Positions 57,054 to 64,000 of a DNA stretch of 64,000 nt are shown here, in pieces (position 1 is the stretch's first letter; each line of letters opens with the position of its first letter). The DNA is from Myxococcales bacterium (GTDB lineage: Bacteria; Myxococcota_A; Polyangia; Polyangiales; DASUME01). The translations under genes were made by a program, and so were the position numbers. The notes beneath the pieces were generated by a model. That model saw nothing but the letters and a program-made list of their open reading frames with translations. It made no database searches and had not been told where the DNA came from. The stretch spans positions 4,736,001 to 4,800,000 of the forward strand of contig JASGJH010000001.1 of the NCBI GenBank assembly GCA_047601445.1, in the 5' to 3' direction.

Positions 57054-57751
57054 CCTGCGACAAGCCCACCATCGTCTTGTTCGACATCGACGGTACGCTC
57101 TTGCTCACGGGCGGCGCCGGCAGGCGCGCCTTCGAGCGCTCGTTTCGCAGCGTGATCGGGCGCGCCGAATCGCTGGCCGGCTTCTCCTTTGGGGGCATGA
57201 CCGACCGCGCCATCGCGCGCATGGGCCTCGAAACCGCTGGCCTCAGCGCCGACGATGAGCGCATCGAGGCACTGCTCGACGCCTACGTGATGGCGCTCGA
57301 AGACGAACTCGCGCAACGCCCCAACTACCGCATCATGCCTCACGCGCGCGAGGTCGTGAGCGCAGCGCGCGAACACCCGCACGTGGCGGTCGGACTCGGC
57401 ACGGGCAACCTCAAGCGTGGCGCCGAGGCCAAGCTCCGCCACGGCGGGCTCTGGGAGCTGTTCGACTTCGGCGGCTTCGGCTGCGACCACGAGAACCGCA
57501 CCGAGCTCCTACGCACCGGCGCGCTGCGCGGCGCCGAGAAGCTAGGTCAGCCGCTGTCGCACTGTCGCATCGTGGTGGTCGGAGACACGGTGCGCGACGT
57601 GGTCGCGGCGCACGGCATCCTGGCCGATTGCGTGGGCGTCGAGACCGGCGGCATCTCGGCCCAGGAACTGCGTGCCGCGGGTGCGCACGCCGTGTTCCCG
57701 GACCTCTCGGCCGCGGGCGTACTCGAGGCTATTTTGCAGGGTGGTTTTTGA
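57050..57751 (+). CDS. HAD family hydrolase
   Basis: LFDIDGTLL, GMTD, GTGN, K, VVGDT..D; GTGA overlap with the upstream stop. Confidence 0.9.
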   Translation: MTCDKPTIVLFDIDGTLLLTGGAGRRAFERSFRSVIGRAESLAGFSFGGMTDRAIARMGLETAGLSADDERIEALLDAYVMALEDELAQRPNYRIMPHAREVVSAAREHPHVAVGLGTGNLKRGAEAKLRHGGLWELFDFGGFGCDHENRTELLRTGALRGAEKLGQPLSHCRIVVVGDTVRDVVAAHGILADCVGVETGGISAQELRAAGAHAVFPDLSAAGVLEAILQGGF

Positions 57752-59150
57752 CCCAGTCCACGATGGCGCGCGCCTTCGGATTCTGACTGAGCGCACCGCC
57801 CGTCTTCTCCTTGGCGCCCCAGGCACCGCTCGAGGACCAGCTGCCACTGTTCGCGTAGTGGGTGGTCATGGCGTAGAGCTTGGCGGACGCGTCGAGCCAT
57901 TCCTTGTACAGGTCGTAGGCCACTTGGTTGCGCGAGAAGGCGTCGGCGCCCTGCAACAGGTGTTGCCCGCCTTCGTAGCTGATCAGCTTCATGCTGGTCT
58001 TCGAGATCAGGTTCTTCTGAGACGTGGCCCAGGTGACCATGTCCGTGAGCGCCTTGCGGAACTGGGCGGCCACGTCCGCGGCGTTGCCGTTCACGCTGCC
58101 GTCGGCGCCCACATAGTTGGAGATCGCGTAATAGTCCGGCGTGCGCGAGCCGAAGTTCACGTTCGGATCCGCCAGCGCCTCCAGCTGCATCTGGGTGCCG
58201 TAATCGCTGCCGAGCTGGCCCGAGACGACCCAGCGCACGCGCGCGATCTCGCTGCCGTAGACCTTCACGAAGGCGTCGTACATGCGCGACGAGGCGTAGA
58301 CGTGGAACTTGAAGGATGCGCCGTAGCTGTCGTCGGCGAGCATCATCTGGGTGCCGCGGTTCTGACAATAGGTGGACTGTCCGAAGCCGGGGTTCCAGGT
58401 CTCGTTCGAGTACTCCACGTACAGCGTGAGGCCGGGATCGAGCTTCTCCTTGGCCAACTTGGCGAGCGAGGTGAAGAAGTTGTCGTCGGCGTTGGCCTCG
58501 TAGCTCTCGATGGCGAGGTGGGGCACCGTGATCCAGCAGTCCTTCTGCATGCGATTGCAGAGATCGAACATCCACTCGTAGGCGATGCCGCGCCCGCCCA
58601 CGTCGCCGCCGTTGCTGTTGCCGGTGGCCGACTGCTGCGTACGATCGGCCCAATTACGGATGGAGGAGTTGTTGGTGCCGCCGAAGTCCATGAAGCGGTA
58701 CACGGAGTAGTCCGCCTCCTCGAGGTCGCTCAAGAACGCCGGGTTCCACGGGTTCATGCTGGTGGCGAAGTTCACGCCCGAAGACCAGGCCTCCTCGGCC
58801 CAGCCGGCGCTCAGGAACCAGAAGTTGGTCCCCACGCGCATGCCGCTCCAGCTCTGCGCGGGCTTCGTGCCGGTGACTGGCGTGGAAGGTGTGCTCGGAC
58901 TGCCCGGGTTTGCCGGCTGGTCCGGCGCTCCGGAGTCGGCGCTCGCGCCGGGGGGCAGCTCTTCGTGATCCGCTCCCGCATCGCCCGCGAGGGGGCCGTC
59001 GGCATCGCCGCCAGACAGGTCGTCACCGGAGTCGGGCGTCTCTTCGATCTGGTTCAGGTGTTGATCGATCGGCGAGCCATCACTGCCGCAAGCACCGAGC
59101 AGAAGGATCGCAAAGAAAGGCATGAGACGGGCAGAGCTGAGGGCTCGCAT
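57729..59150 (-). CDS. Lipoprotein with putative glycoside-hydrolase TIM-barrel domain
   Basis: LGAC lipobox, DAG/Pro linker; RFMDF, WITVPH, YVEYSNETWN, YEGGQHL; CAGGAG RBS. Confidence 0.7.
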   Translation of the reverse strand: MRALSSARLMPFFAILLLGACGSDGSPIDQHLNQIEETPDSGDDLSGGDADGPLAGDAGADHEELPPGASADSGAPDQPANPGSPSTPSTPVTGTKPAQSWSGMRVGTNFWFLSAGWAEEAWSSGVNFATSMNPWNPAFLSDLEEADYSVYRFMDFGGTNNSSIRNWADRTQQSATGNSNGGDVGGRGIAYEWMFDLCNRMQKDCWITVPHLAIESYEANADDNFFTSLAKLAKEKLDPGLTLYVEYSNETWNPGFGQSTYCQNRGTQMMLADDSYGASFKFHVYASSRMYDAFVKVYGSEIARVRWVVSGQLGSDYGTQMQLEALADPNVNFGSRTPDYYAISNYVGADGSVNGNAADVAAQFRKALTDMVTWATSQKNLISKTSMKLISYEGGQHLLQGADAFSRNQVAYDLYKEWLDASAKLYAMTTHYANSGSWSSSGAWGAKEKTGGALSQNPKARAIVDWVKNHPAK

Positions 59151-59480
59151 TCCGTGGACTCCTGGTTTCTGGAAAAGGGAAATCGCGGCGTCTGGGGCCG
59201 ACCTGCGGCACCGCGTCCGCCACAACGCGAGCTCCGTTCCTAGCAACCACGACTCGCGCGCTGCTCGTCGAAAGCCGTGTCGACGGGCAATTGAACGCAG
59301 CCTGGTCAGCTGCGCTCCTCGCTATCGGCTACGCACGTGACGCGATCGCGGGCGCGCAGAACGCCAGCACACGCTCGCTCTGTGGCAGCTCGAACCGGTG
59401 TCGAGGGGCCGCGCACATGTCTTGAATTCAGGCCAAAACCGTCGCAAGTTCAGCGCATGGTTCGCAGGCCGCGGCACACC

Positions 59481-60529: not shown

Positions 60530-60801
60530 TCCAACCGCTTATCGCCGCTCGGTCCTGGCCGTCAAGGTCACTCCCCGGAACCCTCCTGGTCACGGCCGTG
60601 GGGCCCGTGATCGGACCTGGCGCGCGGCGTCCCCATCCAGGCTCAGGTCGAACTCGGTCACTGAGTCTGAGCTCACTGATAGTGAATGATCTTTCAGTGG
60701 GATTTTTTGGCGTCGTTTCGCTGTTTTGGACAGCGTTCAGACTTGCTTGTCAAAGCGCATCTGACTACACCGGCCGCAAGGCCAGGGGGAGGACGAGGGG
60801 C

Positions 60802-63800
60802 ATGGTTCGTAACAGCTACGACGTCGTGGTGGTCGGTGCAGGACCAGTGGGCTCGGTGGCTGCGGTGGCAGCCGCGCGGACCGGGGCACGCGTGCTCTTG
60901 CTGGAGGCCAATCCCGAAGCCGCGCGCCGCTTCGCGGGCGAATGGCTGCATCCCACGGGAGTCGCGGTGCTCGATCGCCTGCGCATCGGCCGCCTCGAAG
61001 GCGCCGACGCACGCACGGGCTACGGCTTCGTGGTGTTCCCGGACGACGGAAGCGAACCCGTGGAGCTCGCCTATCCGAGCGGCCAGGTCGCGCTGGCCTG
61101 CGAGCACTCGAGCATCGTGGAAGCGCTGCGCGAGCGCGCCGCCTCGCTCGACGAGGTCGACTATCTGCCCCACGCGCGCGTGACCAGCATCGAGGGTCAC
61201 CGCGTGACCTTCCGCACCCGCGAGGGTGAGCACAGCGTGCATGCCGGCAAGGTCATCGGCGCCGACGGGCGCTCCTCCGTGGCGCGCAAGGCGCTCGGGC
61301 TCTCCGCCCACGGCGCCCCGGTCTCGTACATGGCCTCGGTGGAGCTGCGCGGCGTGGAGCTGCCGGTCGAGGGCTATGGTCACGTGGTGCTCGGCGGGCC
61401 CGGGCCCGTGCTCATGTACCGCATCGGGCCCGACCTGATCCGCGGCTGCTTCGACGTGCCGCTGTCGTTCGACGCCAGCCGCCGCAACCCCACCTTCCTG
61501 TGGGACGGCTTCTCGGCCGTGCTGCCGGGGCGTCTGCGACGCTCCTTCCGCGACGCGCTCGAGCGGGGACCCGTGCACTGGGCCGTCAACCGCTTCGCGC
61601 CGCGCGGCTTCTATGGGCAAGGCCCTGTCTGGCTGGCGGGCGACGCGGTGGGGCATTTCCACCCGCTCACCGCGGCGGGCATGACGCTCGGCTTCCTCGA
61701 CGCCGAGCTCGCGGGCGAGACCGGCTCGCTCACCGAATACCATCGCACGCGCGAGCGCGGCAGCTACGTGCCCGAATTGCTCTCCAACGCGCTTTACCAG
61801 GTGCTCTCCCGCGAAGACGCCAGCGCCACCGCCGTTCGCAGTGCGGTGTACCGCGTGTGGCGCAAGAGCCCGTCCGAGCGCGAGCGCACCATGCGCCTGC
61901 TGATGGGCGCCACGTCCAGCCGCTCCACCTTCGGCGCCTCGTTCACGCGCATGGCCCTGTCGGCCTTCCGCAACACCATCAGCGAGCTCTCCCAGGCACG
62001 CCGCTTCGACGCGCTGCTGCCGTCGCTCGCCTCGTACCGTGAGTGGGTCCAGTGGCCCGCTGCCTCGCTCGCACCCTCCCGCGGACGTCGCCGCTATCGC
62101 ATGAAGAGCACCTCCGAGCGCCCGCTGCCCTGGCGCGGCCTGAAGCTGCTCAAGCCCAGCCAGATCGAGGCCGCTCCCGCGGTTCCGTTGATGGAAGCCA
62201 GCGCCGAGAAGGGCGAGGGCCCCACCCTACAAGAGGCGCTCTCGCTGGCCGGTGATGCCCTGCTCGTGGAGCTCAAGCGCCTGCACGAGCGCATCGGCCG
62301 CGATCCTCACTGGATGCTGATGCGCAGCGCCACGCGCATCGTGGCTGCCATCGACGCCGCCGACCTGGGCACCAGCATGGCCGCCCGCATGGGCCTGGCC
62401 CGCCGCCCCATGGCGCGTCTCGGCATCGCGAGCCTGCTCGGCGCCTACGAAGCCGACCCGCACGTCATCCGTGCCAGCGACTTCGCCTCGTTCATGCTCA
62501 GCCTCGTCACCCCCGACGACAGCTCCACCGTGGACCGCCTCGACGACGGCGTGCGCCACTTGCTGGCCTGCCAGCGTCCCAACGGCGGCTTCGCGCCGTG
62601 GCCGCAGCCGTCGGCGCAGCCCGATCTCGCGACCACAGAGCTGGCCTGCCGTGCACTCGCGCGCTGCCGCGATCGCTACGGCGACGACGGCGCCTTCCGC
62701 TATACCGACGCGCTCTCGCGCGCCCGGCGCTTCCTGCTCTCGAGCCAGGCCAAGGACGGCAGCTGGCCCGCCAGCGAGCTCGAGGGCGTCCTCAGCAACA
62801 CCGCCCACGCCATGCGCGCCCTGTCGGCAGTCGGAGAACCCGCGGCCTCCTCGGCTTTGCGCCGCGCCGCGCGCTTCTTGGCCTCGGCCCAGTCCGAAGA
62901 CGGTGTGTTCGCCGCGCGCGCAGACGAGCGCGCTGCCACACCCGAGCTCACGGCCCGCGCCGTCAACGCCTTGCTCACCGTGCGCGGTCCCCACTGGGGC
63001 GTGATCCAGCGCGCGGTTCCTCACTTGATCGCGCGCCTGGCCGACACGGTCGCGGTCGAAGTCCGCGAAGCCCGCAGCGAAGAGGCCTGGGAGCGCTGCT
63101 GCGATCTCGTCGACGCGCTCACCGCACTCGAGGCGCAGCGCCGCGCTCGACCGCGCCCCGAGCTGTTCCGCGCCCAGCAGTCGGGCGACGACTGGGCCTT
63201 CTGCAAGGAGAGCCTGGTGGCGGTCTCGCGCACCTTCTCCAAGCCGATCGCGATGTTGCCCGGCGACCTCGAGGTCGCGGTGACCTGCGGCTATCTTCTG
63301 TGCCGCATCGCCGACACCGTCGAAGATCACCCGGCCGTGCCGCGCGGGCAGAAGGACGACCTGTTCAACCGCTTCCTGAGCGTGCTCGAGCAGGGCGGCA
63401 GCGCGCGCGACTTCTCGATCGCCTTCGAGGCCATCGAGGGTGACGACGCCGAGCTCTCGCTGGCGCGCCAACTCCCGTGCGTCATGCGCGTGTTTACCTC
63501 GCTGCCCGAAGGCATGCAGGCCGTGGTCGGTCGCTGGGTGGCCGAGATGTCGCGCGGCATGAGCCTCTACACGCACCGTGAGCCCGGAGACGACGGCTTC
63601 GTGGCCCTCTACACGGTCGAGGATCTCGAGCGCTACTGCTACTACGTGGCGGGCACCGTCGGGCACATGCTCACCGAGCTCTTCGCGGAGGCCATGGGCG
63701 ACCGCGTCGACAAGCGCACGCTGGCGGAGATGCGGCATCACGCCGAGGCCTTCGGCGCCGGACTGCAGCTGGTGAACATCCTCAAGGACGTCACCGACGA

Positions 63801-64000
63801 CCGCCAACGCCGCTGGTCCTTCATCCCGCGCGCAGCCTGCGAGCGCGTGGGCATCAGCATCGAGAACCTCACCGACGAGGACGTGCGCGACCGTGCCCAC
63901 CTGGCGGTGGCGCCGCTGTTCGACTTGGCCAAGGTCAAGCTCGACCGCGCGCTCGCCTACGCCCTGTCCATCCCCCCGGATCAAAAGGGGGTGCGCTTGT
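60802..64000 (+). CDS. Multidomain triterpenoid enzyme: squalene epoxidase + degenerate terpene-cyclase (QW) fragment + squalene synthase; 3'-truncated by window edge
   Basis: ATG at 60802 after GGAGG; no in-frame stop to the window end; GAGPVG, GEWLHPTG, GDAVGHFHPLTAAGMT; QRPNGGF, QAKDGSW, QSEDGVF; VSRTF, CRIADTVED, YCYYVAGTVG, LQLVNILKDVTDD. Confidence 0.88.
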   Translation, partial: MVRNSYDVVVVGAGPVGSVAAVAAARTGARVLLLEANPEAARRFAGEWLHPTGVAVLDRLRIGRLEGADARTGYGFVVFPDDGSEPVELAYPSGQVALACEHSSIVEALRERAASLDEVDYLPHARVTSIEGHRVTFRTREGEHSVHAGKVIGADGRSSVARKALGLSAHGAPVSYMASVELRGVELPVEGYGHVVLGGPGPVLMYRIGPDLIRGCFDVPLSFDASRRNPTFLWDGFSAVLPGRLRRSFRDALERGPVHWAVNRFAPRGFYGQGPVWLAGDAVGHFHPLTAAGMTLGFLDAELAGETGSLTEYHRTRERGSYVPELLSNALYQVLSREDASATAVRSAVYRVWRKSPSERERTMRLLMGATSSRSTFGASFTRMALSAFRNTISELSQARRFDALLPSLASYREWVQWPAASLAPSRGRRRYRMKSTSERPLPWRGLKLLKPSQIEAAPAVPLMEASAEKGEGPTLQEALSLAGDALLVELKRLHERIGRDPHWMLMRSATRIVAAIDAADLGTSMAARMGLARRPMARLGIASLLGAYEADPHVIRASDFASFMLSLVTPDDSSTVDRLDDGVRHLLACQRPNGGFAPWPQPSAQPDLATTELACRALARCRDRYGDDGAFRYTDALSRARRFLLSSQAKDGSWPASELEGVLSNTAHAMRALSAVGEPAASSALRRAARFLASAQSEDGVFAARADERAATPELTARAVNALLTVRGPHWGVIQRAVPHLIARLADTVAVEVREARSEEAWERCCDLVDALTALEAQRRARPRPELFRAQQSGDDWAFCKESLVAVSRTFSKPIAMLPGDLEVAVTCGYLLCRIADTVEDHPAVPRGQKDDLFNRFLSVLEQGGSARDFSIAFEAIEGDDAELSLARQLPCVMRVFTSLPEGMQAVVGRWVAEMSRGMSLYTHREPGDDGFVALYTVEDLERYCYYVAGTVGHMLTELFAEAMGDRVDKRTLAEMRHHAEAFGAGLQLVNILKDVTDDRQRRWSFIPRAACERVGISIENLTDEDVRDRAHLAVAPLFDLAKVKLDRALAYALSIPPDQKGVRL

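What the first reader, a model, noticed from the sequence alone, without database searches (positions are those of the whole stretch)
60802..64000. Single polypeptide fusing squalene epoxidase, a cyclase remnant and squalene synthase
Seen: one uninterrupted reading frame of at least 1066 codons, absent from the ORF track because its stop lies beyond the window. ~60802-62050 is an FAD monooxygenase with squalene-epoxidase-type motifs (RFAGEWLHPTG, GYGHVVLGGPGPVLMYRI, GDAVGHFHPLTAAGMT, NALY). ~62220-63150 carries QW repeats. ~63190 to the end is a head-to-head prenyl synthase with FDFT1-type motifs (VSRTF, YLLCRIADTVED, YCYYVAGTVG, LQLVNILKDVTDD), closer to single-enzyme squalene synthases than to CrtB/HpnD. 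Known: FPP -> squalene -> 2,3-oxidosqualene -> cyclised sterol is the entry to sterol synthesis; some myxobacteria make sterols; epoxidase-cyclase fusions occur in a few bacteria. I do not know of a characterised epoxidase-synthase fusion. Inference: a natural FPP-to-oxidosqualene channelling enzyme, likely heading a sterol/triterpenoid operon that continues past the window.
Basis: partly seen in the sequence, partly recalled or inferred. Interest (0 to 1): 0.9.

Follow-up and report, generated by a model that had tools for sequence, protein, structure and literature searches.

The report
Fused squalene synthase-epoxidase with inactive barrel
One bacterial gene joins the enzyme that makes squalene to the enzyme that oxidises it, with an apparently inactive but conserved piece of a sterol cyclase between them; the fusion is real, common in myxobacteria and present in cultured sterol makers, but apparently unstudied as a fusion.

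Summary
Confirmed. The frame continues past the window into a 1138-aa protein: squalene epoxidase (SE), a 310-aa middle domain and squalene synthase (SQS). An intact lanosterol-type oxidosqualene cyclase (OSC) starts 17 nt after its stop. It is the genome's only SE and only SQS-type enzyme found. The middle is a complete OSC beta-barrel without the gamma domain or a conserved catalytic Asp, yet under purifying selection. The fusion is widespread in myxobacteria, including cultured Cystobacter fuscus DSM 2262 (cycloartenol) and Sandaracinus amylolyticus (cholesterol). Their accessions appear in published tables and trees without comment; ten literature searches found no paper on the fusion. This scan reported it four times before on other genomes. 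Where an SE-OSC fusion lies next door, its SE is the decayed one (12 of 13, against 0 of 39), which points to this protein as the working epoxidase. Best reading: an FPP-to-oxidosqualene bifunctional enzyme with a structural barrel. Channelling is unshown, since barrel-less forms arose repeatedly. The operon is only two genes. New variant of a known kind.

The parts
60674..60699 (.). Conserved imperfect palindrome about 130 nt upstream of the start codon; candidate regulator binding site (function inferred)
   Evidence: Inverted repeat I3. Found upstream of the gene in 10 of 10 same-genus sequences and unique in the genome: score 37.7, next site 20.3, shuffled maximum 19.0 (the matrix was built from these same sites).
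60788..60792 (+). Shine-Dalgarno-like GGAGG, 9 nt before the ATG
   Evidence: Read from the sequence. Homologues begin at this ATG (query 1-1138).
60802..64000 (+). SE-barrel-SQS fusion gene, 1138 aa (P0001); continues 218 nt beyond the window (G000:C1:4796802-4800218). An intact 674-aa oxidosqualene cyclase gene follows 17 nt after its stop, wholly outside the window (L001:5236-7260).
   Evidence: The exact protein is in NCBI. Downstream OSC: TIGR01787 632 bits over cut-off 323, TIGR03463 711 bits under its cut-off of 851; GWIVSDCTAE motif with Val at the position Wei 2016 links to lanosterol synthases.
60802..62100 (+). Squalene epoxidase domain, aa 1-433 (FAD fold, substrate domain and C-terminal helical domain)
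   Evidence: Best PDB hit is human SQLE 6c6n, E 2e-25, next hit 2e-8. Foldseek TM 0.82 over the whole 450-residue chain. It is the only PF08491 match in the genome.
62101..62223 (+). Flexible linker, aa 434-474
   Evidence: pLDDT about 50; 2 of 41 columns conserved at 90% or more.
62224..63153 (+). Complete 12-helix OSC-type beta barrel, aa 475-784, gamma domain absent, no conserved catalytic Asp
   Evidence: Model pLDDT 90.5. VIA Z 25.8, rmsd 3.2, 293 aligned to human OSC 1w6k 68-727. OSC D(CTAE) aligns to S559, a variable column. dN/dS 0.10-0.50.
63184..64000 (+). Squalene synthase domain, aa 795-1130 (ends beyond the window at the equivalent of 64191)
   Evidence: All top PDB hits are squalene synthases, E 8e-24 to 2e-14, ahead of CrtM at 1e-11. 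TIGR01559 124 bits against HpnD 50 and CrtB 46. VSRTF, DTxED, RYCxxVAG, QxxNILKDxxxD and VKISR are invariant or nearly so in 91 homologues.

Best explanation
The gene encodes a bifunctional enzyme for the two steps from farnesyl diphosphate to 2,3-oxidosqualene. The C-terminal SQS domain joins two FPP through presqualene diphosphate and reduces it with NADPH to squalene. The N-terminal FAD domain epoxidises squalene with O2 and reducing power supplied from outside, as the chain has no reductase domain. The OSC encoded by the next gene cyclises the product, probably to lanosterol. The middle domain is the beta barrel of an OSC from the lineage that includes SE-OSC fusions. It has lost its gamma domain and catalytic acid and is kept as a folded structural part, probably packed on SE. 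The benefit is 1:1 co-expression and proximity at the membrane; a closed channel is not required. Shown here: architecture, folds, motif conservation, loss of the cyclase acid, selection on the barrel, genomic uniqueness and the adjacent OSC. Inferred: both activities, the product, SE-barrel packing and any proximity effect.
For: Only SE in the genome. The only other PF00494 gene is a crtB between crtI-like and lycopene-cyclase genes, and no HpnE reaches the cut-off. The genome also has CYP51, an ERG4/ERG24 family gene, Rieske plus 3-beta-HSD genes beside CYP51 and two HMG-CoA reductases. SE and SQS columns are 34% and 41% conserved at 90% or more, against 11% in the barrel. The C. fuscus DSM 2262 orthologue D187_003106 (1163 aa) is the SE listed for that cycloartenol producer (Wei 2016 Table 4). 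Eight FAD or catalytic positions are intact in 39 of 39 SE-(barrel)-SQS domains and 6 of 6 lone SE-OSC fusions, but changed in 12 of 13 SE-OSC fusions lying next to this gene. In the cholesterol producer S. amylolyticus the SE-OSC AKF09142 has H287P while AKF09140 is intact. SE-barrel complex prediction: 0.55 against best control 0.02, weak support; the mark was reached by 116 of 157 solved and 2 of 215 mismatched pairs, but at 0.60 or under by only 18 of the 157 and by both mismatches; contacts agree 87% or more, partner pLDDT 85 or more.
Against: No activity has been measured. Human SQLE Y195 (Y195F loses over 90% activity) and its partner Q168 align to invariant F76 and H50. This pair is shared by nearly all bacterial SEs aligned, so it is a clade trait, but it is not proof of activity. 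The SQS domain scores far below the TIGR01559 cut-off (124 against 287). Other SE or squalene sources in C. fuscus and S. amylolyticus were not excluded. The origin is not a simple duplication of the neighbour: grouping this SE with myxobacterial SE-OSC domains is rejected (AU p 0.0009), although grouping with all SE-OSC is not (p 0.11). A grouping of the barrel with SHC-like outgroups is not rejected (p 0.09). Related genomes are not independent samples.
Confidence: 0.75

Rival explanations
1. True channelling machine: the open-faced dead barrel docks on SE and forms a hydrophobic conduit or holding site, so that squalene passes from SQS to SE without entering bulk membrane; it may also dock the separate OSC.
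For: The barrel is complete and under purifying selection close to that of the catalytic domains. It has family-wide conserved residues in its N-terminal part, such as G499, P502, R529, R535 and G541, outside the stretch that aligns to OSC by profile. Full-length pTM 0.70 for three domains. Weak SE-barrel support, 0.55 against control 0.02. No squalene is marked for S. amylolyticus in Wei 2016 Table 3.
Against: 6 of 126 fusions have under 110 aa between SE and SQS and 4 have about 255. Monophyly of the barrel-bearing forms is rejected (AU p 0.0002), so the barrel was lost repeatedly. Squalene is marked as present in C. fuscus. Both linkers have low confidence in the model.
Confidence: 0.13
2. 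One catalytic domain does something else or nothing: the FAD domain is not a working squalene epoxidase, or the C-terminal domain stops at presqualene diphosphate or makes dehydrosqualene.
For: F76 and H50 replace human Y195 and Q168. SQS is below the TIGR01559 cut-off.
Against: The same F/H pair occurs across bacterial SEs next to OSC genes. No other SE or SQS-type gene was found to feed the adjacent OSC. The DTxxD first motif is the Sqs signature in Santana-Molina 2020. The SRTF flap and VKISR segment match human SQS. CrtB lies elsewhere in a crt operon.
Confidence: 0.07
3. The middle domain is an active single-domain class II cyclase, like MstE or the Cystobacter and Archangium monodomain cyclases, making the protein trifunctional.
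For: Fold matches to monodomain cyclases 8paj (Z 23.1) and MstE 6sbb (Z 20.6). Asp560 lies one residue from the catalytic position, present in 38 of 91 homologues.
Against: The catalytic column is S 23, E 23, R 18 and A 11 of 91, and the only invariant barrel residue is T612. No Asp reaches 90%, apart from one in a helix-linking loop (position 503) that this protein lacks. An intact OSC is encoded next door in this genus, and an SE-OSC with DCTAE in Sandaracinaceae.
Confidence: 0.04
4. Assembly or sequencing artefact joining separate genes.
For: None found; the junctions were not checked at read level.
Against: The same one-frame architecture occurs in 5 independent same-genus assemblies, 20 of 78 loci and complete genomes of cultured strains. 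GC3 is uniform across the junctions.
Confidence: 0.01

Closest known systems
Cystobacter fuscus DSM 2262 D187_003106 (EPX59202.1, WP_002623688.1, UniProt S9PAC1, 1163 aa) and Sandaracinus amylolyticus AKF09140.1 (WP_053236219.1, 1146 aa)
   Same: Same three-part architecture; per domain about 54% (SE), 30-34% (barrel) and 61-63% (SQS) identical. Both strains make sterols.
   Different: Databases name them as single enzymes (squalene monooxygenase or squalene synthase). Wei 2016 lists the first as SE. The Hoshino and Gaucher 2021 supplement carries both accessions in two trees with different residue ranges, and has no occurrence of 'fusion'. In S. amylolyticus the partner cyclase is an SE-OSC fusion; here it is a stand-alone OSC.
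[quoted passage not shown]
   Same: N-terminal SE followed by an OSC-derived part. The barrel here nests in the OSC clade that holds the SE-OSC fusions (aLRT 99), not with the neighbouring OSC (AU p 0.0015).
   Different: MsbE has a whole cyclase and no SQS; the paper says squalene synthase lies on another scaffold. Here the gamma domain and catalytic Asp are gone and SQS is appended.
Squalene epoxidase, human SQLE (PDB 6C6N; PF08491)
   Same: Fold over the full catalytic chain (TM 0.82), GxGxxG, the R-x-x-GE motif, the Y335 equivalent (Y206) and the GD..HP..GxT motif.
   Different: Y195 and Q168 are F and H, as in other bacterial SEs; fused at its C-terminus.
Single-enzyme squalene synthase (FDFT1; PDB 1EZF, 3VJ8, 7WGH; TIGR01559)
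   Same: Flap, both Asp-rich motifs, the YCxYVAG and FCxxP segments and the VKI segment.
   Different: Bacterial branch below the model's cut-off; no clear C-terminal membrane anchor in a hydropathy scan; fused at its N-terminus.
Oxidosqualene cyclase beta domain (human LSS 1W6K) and monodomain class II cyclases (MstE 6SBB, 8PAJ, 8PAK)
   Same: 12-helix alpha/alpha toroid, Z 20.6-25.8.
   Different: No conserved catalytic Asp; active-site loops shortened; sandwiched between two other enzymes.

Membership tests
Squalene epoxidase (SQLE/SQMO) | FAD monooxygenase fold with SE substrate domain and C-terminal helical domain | tested here: met
   PF08491 73 bits over cut-off 20; Foldseek top three hits human SQLE, TM 0.82-0.83.
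Squalene epoxidase (SQLE/SQMO) | FAD motifs (GxGxxG, acidic ribose residue, GD motif) and the Y335-equivalent tyrosine | tested here: met
   G12, G14, G17, E35, R43, E47, Y206, D281, H287, P288 and G293 present and conserved.
Squalene epoxidase (eukaryotic SQLE branch) | Y195-Q168 pair needed for activity in the human enzyme | tested here: not met
   F76 and H50. The same pair stands in nearly all 103 bacterial SE domains aligned, so it defines the eukaryotic branch rather than the family.
Squalene epoxidase (SQLE/SQMO) | Epoxidises squalene to 2,3-oxidosqualene | not testable with these tools
   Indirect only: sole SE beside an OSC; the orthologue is the listed SE of a cycloartenol producer.
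Squalene synthase (Sqs/FDFT1) | Head-to-head fold with DTxxD first motif, second D-x-x-x-D motif, SRxF flap and catalytic Tyr segment | tested here: met
   DTVED 838-842, DVTDD 996-1000, VSRTF 808-812 and RYCYYVAG 944-951, near-invariant in 91 sequences; DTxxD signature.
Squalene synthase (TIGR01559 equivalog) | Scores over the TIGR01559 curated cut-off | tested here: not met
   124 against 286.75 bits. It is still the best head-to-head family (HpnD 50, HpnC 48, CrtB 46), and the C. fuscus and S. amylolyticus orthologues also fall short.
Squalene synthase (Sqs/FDFT1) | NADPH-dependent formation of squalene from two FPP | not testable with these tools
   No assay possible.
Class II triterpene cyclase (OSC/SHC), middle domain | alpha/alpha toroid beta domain with QW repeats | tested here: met
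   Z 25.8, 293 residues aligned to 1w6k; HHalign probability 99.7 against an OSC alignment.
Class II triterpene cyclase (OSC/SHC), middle domain | Catalytic Asp of DCTAE or DxDD | tested here: not met
   Aligns to S559; the column is unconserved.
Class II triterpene cyclase (OSC/SHC), middle domain | Gamma domain with substrate channel | tested here: not met
   310 aa cover OSC 68-727 with 293 aligned residues, so the inserted domain is absent.
SE-OSC fusion (MsbE type) | SE joined to a complete, catalytically intact cyclase | tested here: not met
   Cyclase part incomplete and SQS appended.
CrtB/CrtM/HpnC/HpnD synthases | Closer to these than to Sqs, with a crtI, crtN or hpnE neighbour | tested here: not met
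   Lower scores; neighbours are a GNAT gene and an OSC.

The most novel reading that the evidence does not exclude
A natural sterol-entry machine in which a dead cyclase barrel was co-opted as an adaptor. It docks on the epoxidase and hands squalene from the synthase to the epoxidase (and perhaps recruits the separate cyclase). It would have arisen by reciprocal decay between an SE-OSC fusion that kept cyclisation and this gene that kept epoxidation.
Probability: 0.15. Interest if true: 0.75.

Novelty: new variant of a known kind. Interest (0 to 1): 0.45.

Why it matters
Squalene synthase and squalene epoxidase are separate membrane enzymes in eukaryotes and common control points in triterpene engineering (general knowledge). 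A natural single-chain version with no clear membrane anchor, from cultured bacteria, is directly testable as a one-gene source of oxidosqualene. It also matters for sterol evolution. Myxobacterial SQS and SQMO used in published trees are in part halves of one protein, and the family shows a cyclase domain becoming a pseudo-enzyme while the neighbouring SE-OSC fusion loses its epoxidase residues. It is not a new reaction or a rare gene.

Tried and rejected
Read-level check: no sequencing run was listed for the locus, so the junctions were not checked with reads; this says nothing either way. A larger sterol operon past the window was rejected. After the OSC come opposite-strand genes (a predicted metal hydrolase and an ORF with no Pfam match), then a fatty-acid cis/trans isomerase gene. 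The sigma-70 promoter and terminator scan found nothing above chance. A hidden second SE, SQS or HpnCDE route was not found with PF08491, PF00494 and TIGR03467. The first HMMER register put the barrel's PDLATT segment (607-612) on the SHC DxDD motif. Profile and multiple alignment place it on the later VECT helix instead; neither register gives a conserved catalytic Asp. Simple tandem duplication of the neighbouring myxobacterial SE-OSC was rejected for the SE domain. Fission back to separate SE and SQS genes (L062, L063, L090 nest in the fusion clade) is not established: fused-only monophyly is not rejected (p 0.29). Calothrix NIES-4105 was dropped as proof that the bacterial F/H pair is active, because Lee 2023 calls its sterol analysis inconclusive. 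A genome-wide regulon for the upstream palindrome was not found. Rows L007 and L008 were in the wrong orientation and were ignored; they were redone. Trees left out 33 of 103 SE domains as near-duplicates or contig fragments. The barrel AU test used 38 of 68 rows, fast searches and 2000 replicates, so its p-values are rough.
Full report
OBSERVATION. The frame that starts at ATG 60802 has no stop before the window ends. In the genome (one contig, 9.5 Mb, 66% GC) it ends 218 nt further on and encodes 1138 aa. GC3 is 0.80-0.93 in every 100-codon block to residue 1100, across both junctions. Pfam places FAD_binding_3 and SE at the N-terminus, SQHop_cyclase_C at 609-707 and SQS_PSY at 807-1099. An AlphaFold2 model on a 91-sequence alignment (pLDDT 90.8, pTM 0.70) gives three folded units, 1-433, 475-784 and 795-1130, joined by two low-confidence linkers.

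NOT AN ARTEFACT, AND NOT RARE. Five of 9 same-genus genomes hold the gene full length in one frame at 68-89% identity; the other 4 are cut by contig ends. A protein search gave 295 hits at E 1e-50 or better among 8000 candidates scored. Of the 120 listed plus 12 cluster members, 126 of 132 carry SE and SQS on one chain. In 116 the spacer is 304-484 aa, in 4 about 255 aa, and in 6 under 110 aa. Among 78 loci from named genome records, 20 have SE-barrel-SQS (one frameshifted within SQS, one cut by a contig end), from records titled Myxococcales, Myxococcota, Polyangiales, Polyangia, Sandaracinaceae, Sandaracinus, or only Deltaproteobacteria or proteobacterium. Cultured carriers include Cystobacter fuscus DSM 2262 (D187_003106, EPX59202.1), C. 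ferrugineus and Sandaracinus amylolyticus (AKF09140.1).

CONTEXT. Seventeen nucleotides after the stop begins a 674-aa oxidosqualene cyclase with GWIVSDCTAE (L001:5236-7260). Its Val matches the lanosterol rule given by Wei 2016. No further sterol gene follows, so the operon is two genes. The fusion is the only PF08491 match in the genome. The only other PF00494 gene is a crtB in a carotenoid cluster, and no HpnE reaches its cut-off. CYP51 with Rieske and 3-beta-HSD neighbours, an ERG4/ERG24-family gene and two HMG-CoA reductases lie elsewhere. The genome thus has a sterol route with a single found source of oxidosqualene.

SE DOMAIN. The best solved relative is human SQLE by sequence (E 2e-25, next 2e-8) and by fold (TM 0.82). 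The FAD motifs and the equivalent of human Y335 are conserved. Against activity: human Y195 and Q168, needed for activity, are F76 and H50. That pair stands in nearly all 103 bacterial SE domains aligned, including the C. fuscus orthologue, which Wei 2016 lists as the SE of a cycloartenol producer. A comparative test favours activity. In Sandaracinaceae-type loci the gene follows an SE-OSC fusion. At eight FAD or catalytic positions, 12 of 13 such neighbours carry a change, against 0 of 6 lone SE-OSC fusions, 0 of 39 SE-(barrel)-SQS domains and 4 of 45 stand-alone SEs, one of them a truncation. In S. amylolyticus, which makes cholesterol, the SE-OSC AKF09142 has H287P and AKF09140 is intact. 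These genomes are kin, but the changes differ among lineages.

SQS DOMAIN. The top ten PDB hits are all FDFT1-type enzymes. TIGR01559 scores 124 bits, against 50 for HpnD and 46 for CrtB, but below its cut-off of 287. The flap, both Asp motifs, RYCxxVAG and VKISR are invariant or nearly so in 91 homologues. DTxxD is the Sqs signature of Santana-Molina 2020. A hydropathy scan shows no clear membrane-spanning tail.

MIDDLE DOMAIN. Folded alone it gives pLDDT 90.5 and 12 main helices. The best matches among 48,161 chains are human OSC (Z 25.8, rmsd 3.2, 293 aligned, chain range 68-727) and SHC (Z 24.7). So it is a whole beta barrel with the inserted gamma domain cut out. The catalytic Asp of DCTAE aligns to S559, a column with S 23, E 23, R 18 and A 11 of 91. 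The next column is Asp in 38 of 91, and only T612 is invariant. Only 11% of barrel columns are 90% conserved, against 34% in SE and 41% in SQS. Yet dN/dS is 0.10-0.50 in 11 overlapping pairs, close to SE (0.09-0.44) and SQS (0.12-0.40) (simple counting method, high GC depresses dS). In trees all barrels form one clade inside the OSC group that holds the SE-OSC fusions (aLRT 99). Grouping with the neighbouring stand-alone OSC type is rejected (AU p 0.0015); grouping with SHC-like outgroups is not (p 0.09). Possible intermediates exist: SE-OSC proteins with a decayed motif (P0238, P0258) and an 810-aa SE-barrel protein without SQS (P0170). The SE tree does not support a simple duplication of the myxobacterial SE-OSC (p 0.0009), though an older SE-OSC ancestor stays open (p 0.11). 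Barrel-bearing forms are not monophyletic (p 0.0002), so the barrel was lost several times. A complex prediction of SE with the barrel scored 0.55 against a best control of 0.02. This is weak support: the mark was reached by 116 of 157 solved and 2 of 215 mismatched pairs, but at 0.60 or under by only 18 of the 157 and by both mismatches. Contacts agree 87% or more and partner pLDDT is 85 or more.

HOW IT MOST LIKELY WORKS (0.75). SQS makes squalene from two FPP and NADPH. SE epoxidises it with O2 and outside reductant. The next gene's OSC makes lanosterol. The barrel is a catalytically dead structural part, probably packed on SE. The chemistry is inferred from family knowledge; the architecture, folds, lost acid, selection and context are shown. 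Channelling (0.13) is possible but is opposed by repeated barrel loss and by squalene marked in C. fuscus extracts. It is not marked for S. amylolyticus (columns read from the table text). An inactive or re-specified domain (0.07), an active monodomain cyclase (0.04) and an artefact (0.01) are weaker.

WHAT IS KNOWN. Ten full-text searches found no paper describing an SE-SQS fusion. The library lacks most subscription journals. What I saw of each paper: Wei 2016 (PMC4919349), passages including Tables 3 and 4, with no 'fusion' or 'fused' in the text. Hoshino and Gaucher 2021 (PMC8237579), passages and supplement searches. There EPX59202 and AKF09140 each occur once before the legend of the SQS tree and once with range 4-437 in a later part, which I read as the SQMO tree (legend not seen); 'fusion' does not occur. 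Santana-Molina 2020 (PMC7306690), passages and supplement searches; both orthologues are listed once and 'fused' and 'fusion' are absent from the supplement. The triterpenoid cyclase preprint (PMC12324236), passages. Lee 2023 (PMC10202945) and the geranylgeranyl reductase preprint (10.1101/2024.11.01.621555), passages; one supplement search of its journal version had no hits. Its gene-cluster figure is an image I could not see and might draw the fusion, and bioRxiv supplements were closed. Padyana 2019 (PMC6327030), passages. The Melophlus sponge paper (PMC7074536), passages describing MsbE, the SE-OSC fusion. The pathway chemistry, the engineering relevance, some author names and the beta/gamma layout of OSC beyond one search are recalled. 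This scan reported the same fusion four times on other genomes and the degenerate SE-OSC neighbour once. The C. fuscus and MsbE leads and the 'complete but inactive barrel' reading came from those notes and were tested here.

VERDICT. Real, conserved and widespread; an unremarked fusion of two known enzymes around a pseudo-enzyme domain. New variant of a known kind. Interest 0.45: easily testable in cultured strains and useful, but with known chemistry, long in databases and with channelling unshown.

Noticed in passing
window 60674-60699: Imperfect palindrome 122-216 nt upstream of the fusion in 10 of 10 same-genus sequences, with no second strong copy in this genome and none in 16 more distant loci scanned; a candidate regulator site for a bacterial sterol operon.
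   Followed up: partly
L029-L033, L035, L037, L038, L040-L043, L068; P0415: Tandem SE-OSC then SE-barrel-SQS in Sandaracinaceae-type loci. The SE of the SE-OSC carries changes at FAD or catalytic positions in 12 of 13 while its DCTAE is intact: reciprocal decay.
   Followed up: yes
L115:2520-10119 (G000:C1 about 9.105-9.113 Mb): CYP51 cluster with 3-beta-HSD, Rieske oxygenase (SdmA/SdmB-like by family only), TetR, and one 1103-codon frame holding both an aldehyde dehydrogenase and a GMC oxidoreductase match, possibly another fusion.
   Followed up: partly
P0170 (810 aa), P0238, P0258: An SE-barrel protein without SQS, and SE-OSC fusions with a decayed cyclase motif; possible evolutionary intermediates, genomic context not seen.
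   Followed up: partly
L016, L051; P0048, P0107, P0112, P0113, P0118, P0121: Natural SE-SQS fusions of 820-875 aa with no barrel, at several places in the tree; ready-made controls for the barrel's role.
   Followed up: partly
L001:8076-11360 (frame starting about 0.8 kb past the OSC): Fatty acid cis/trans isomerase family gene (PF06934, E 8e-163) near the sterol operon; both affect membrane order, linkage not tested.
   Followed up: no
L107:8738-15224 (G000:C1 about 9.087-9.093 Mb): Carotenoid cluster (lycopene cyclase, crtI-like, crtB) ending against a photolyase-like ORF, about 12 kb from the CYP51 cluster (the photolyase label is by eye).
   Followed up: no
window 57729-59246 (-): 505-aa ORF with a lipoprotein-like N-terminus and no Pfam match.
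   Followed up: no
L052:945-5681, L054:934-5676: Frames of about 1580 codons with an SQS-like match in the middle (830-1160), upstream of an SE-OSC fusion; possibly a different SQS fusion.
   Followed up: no
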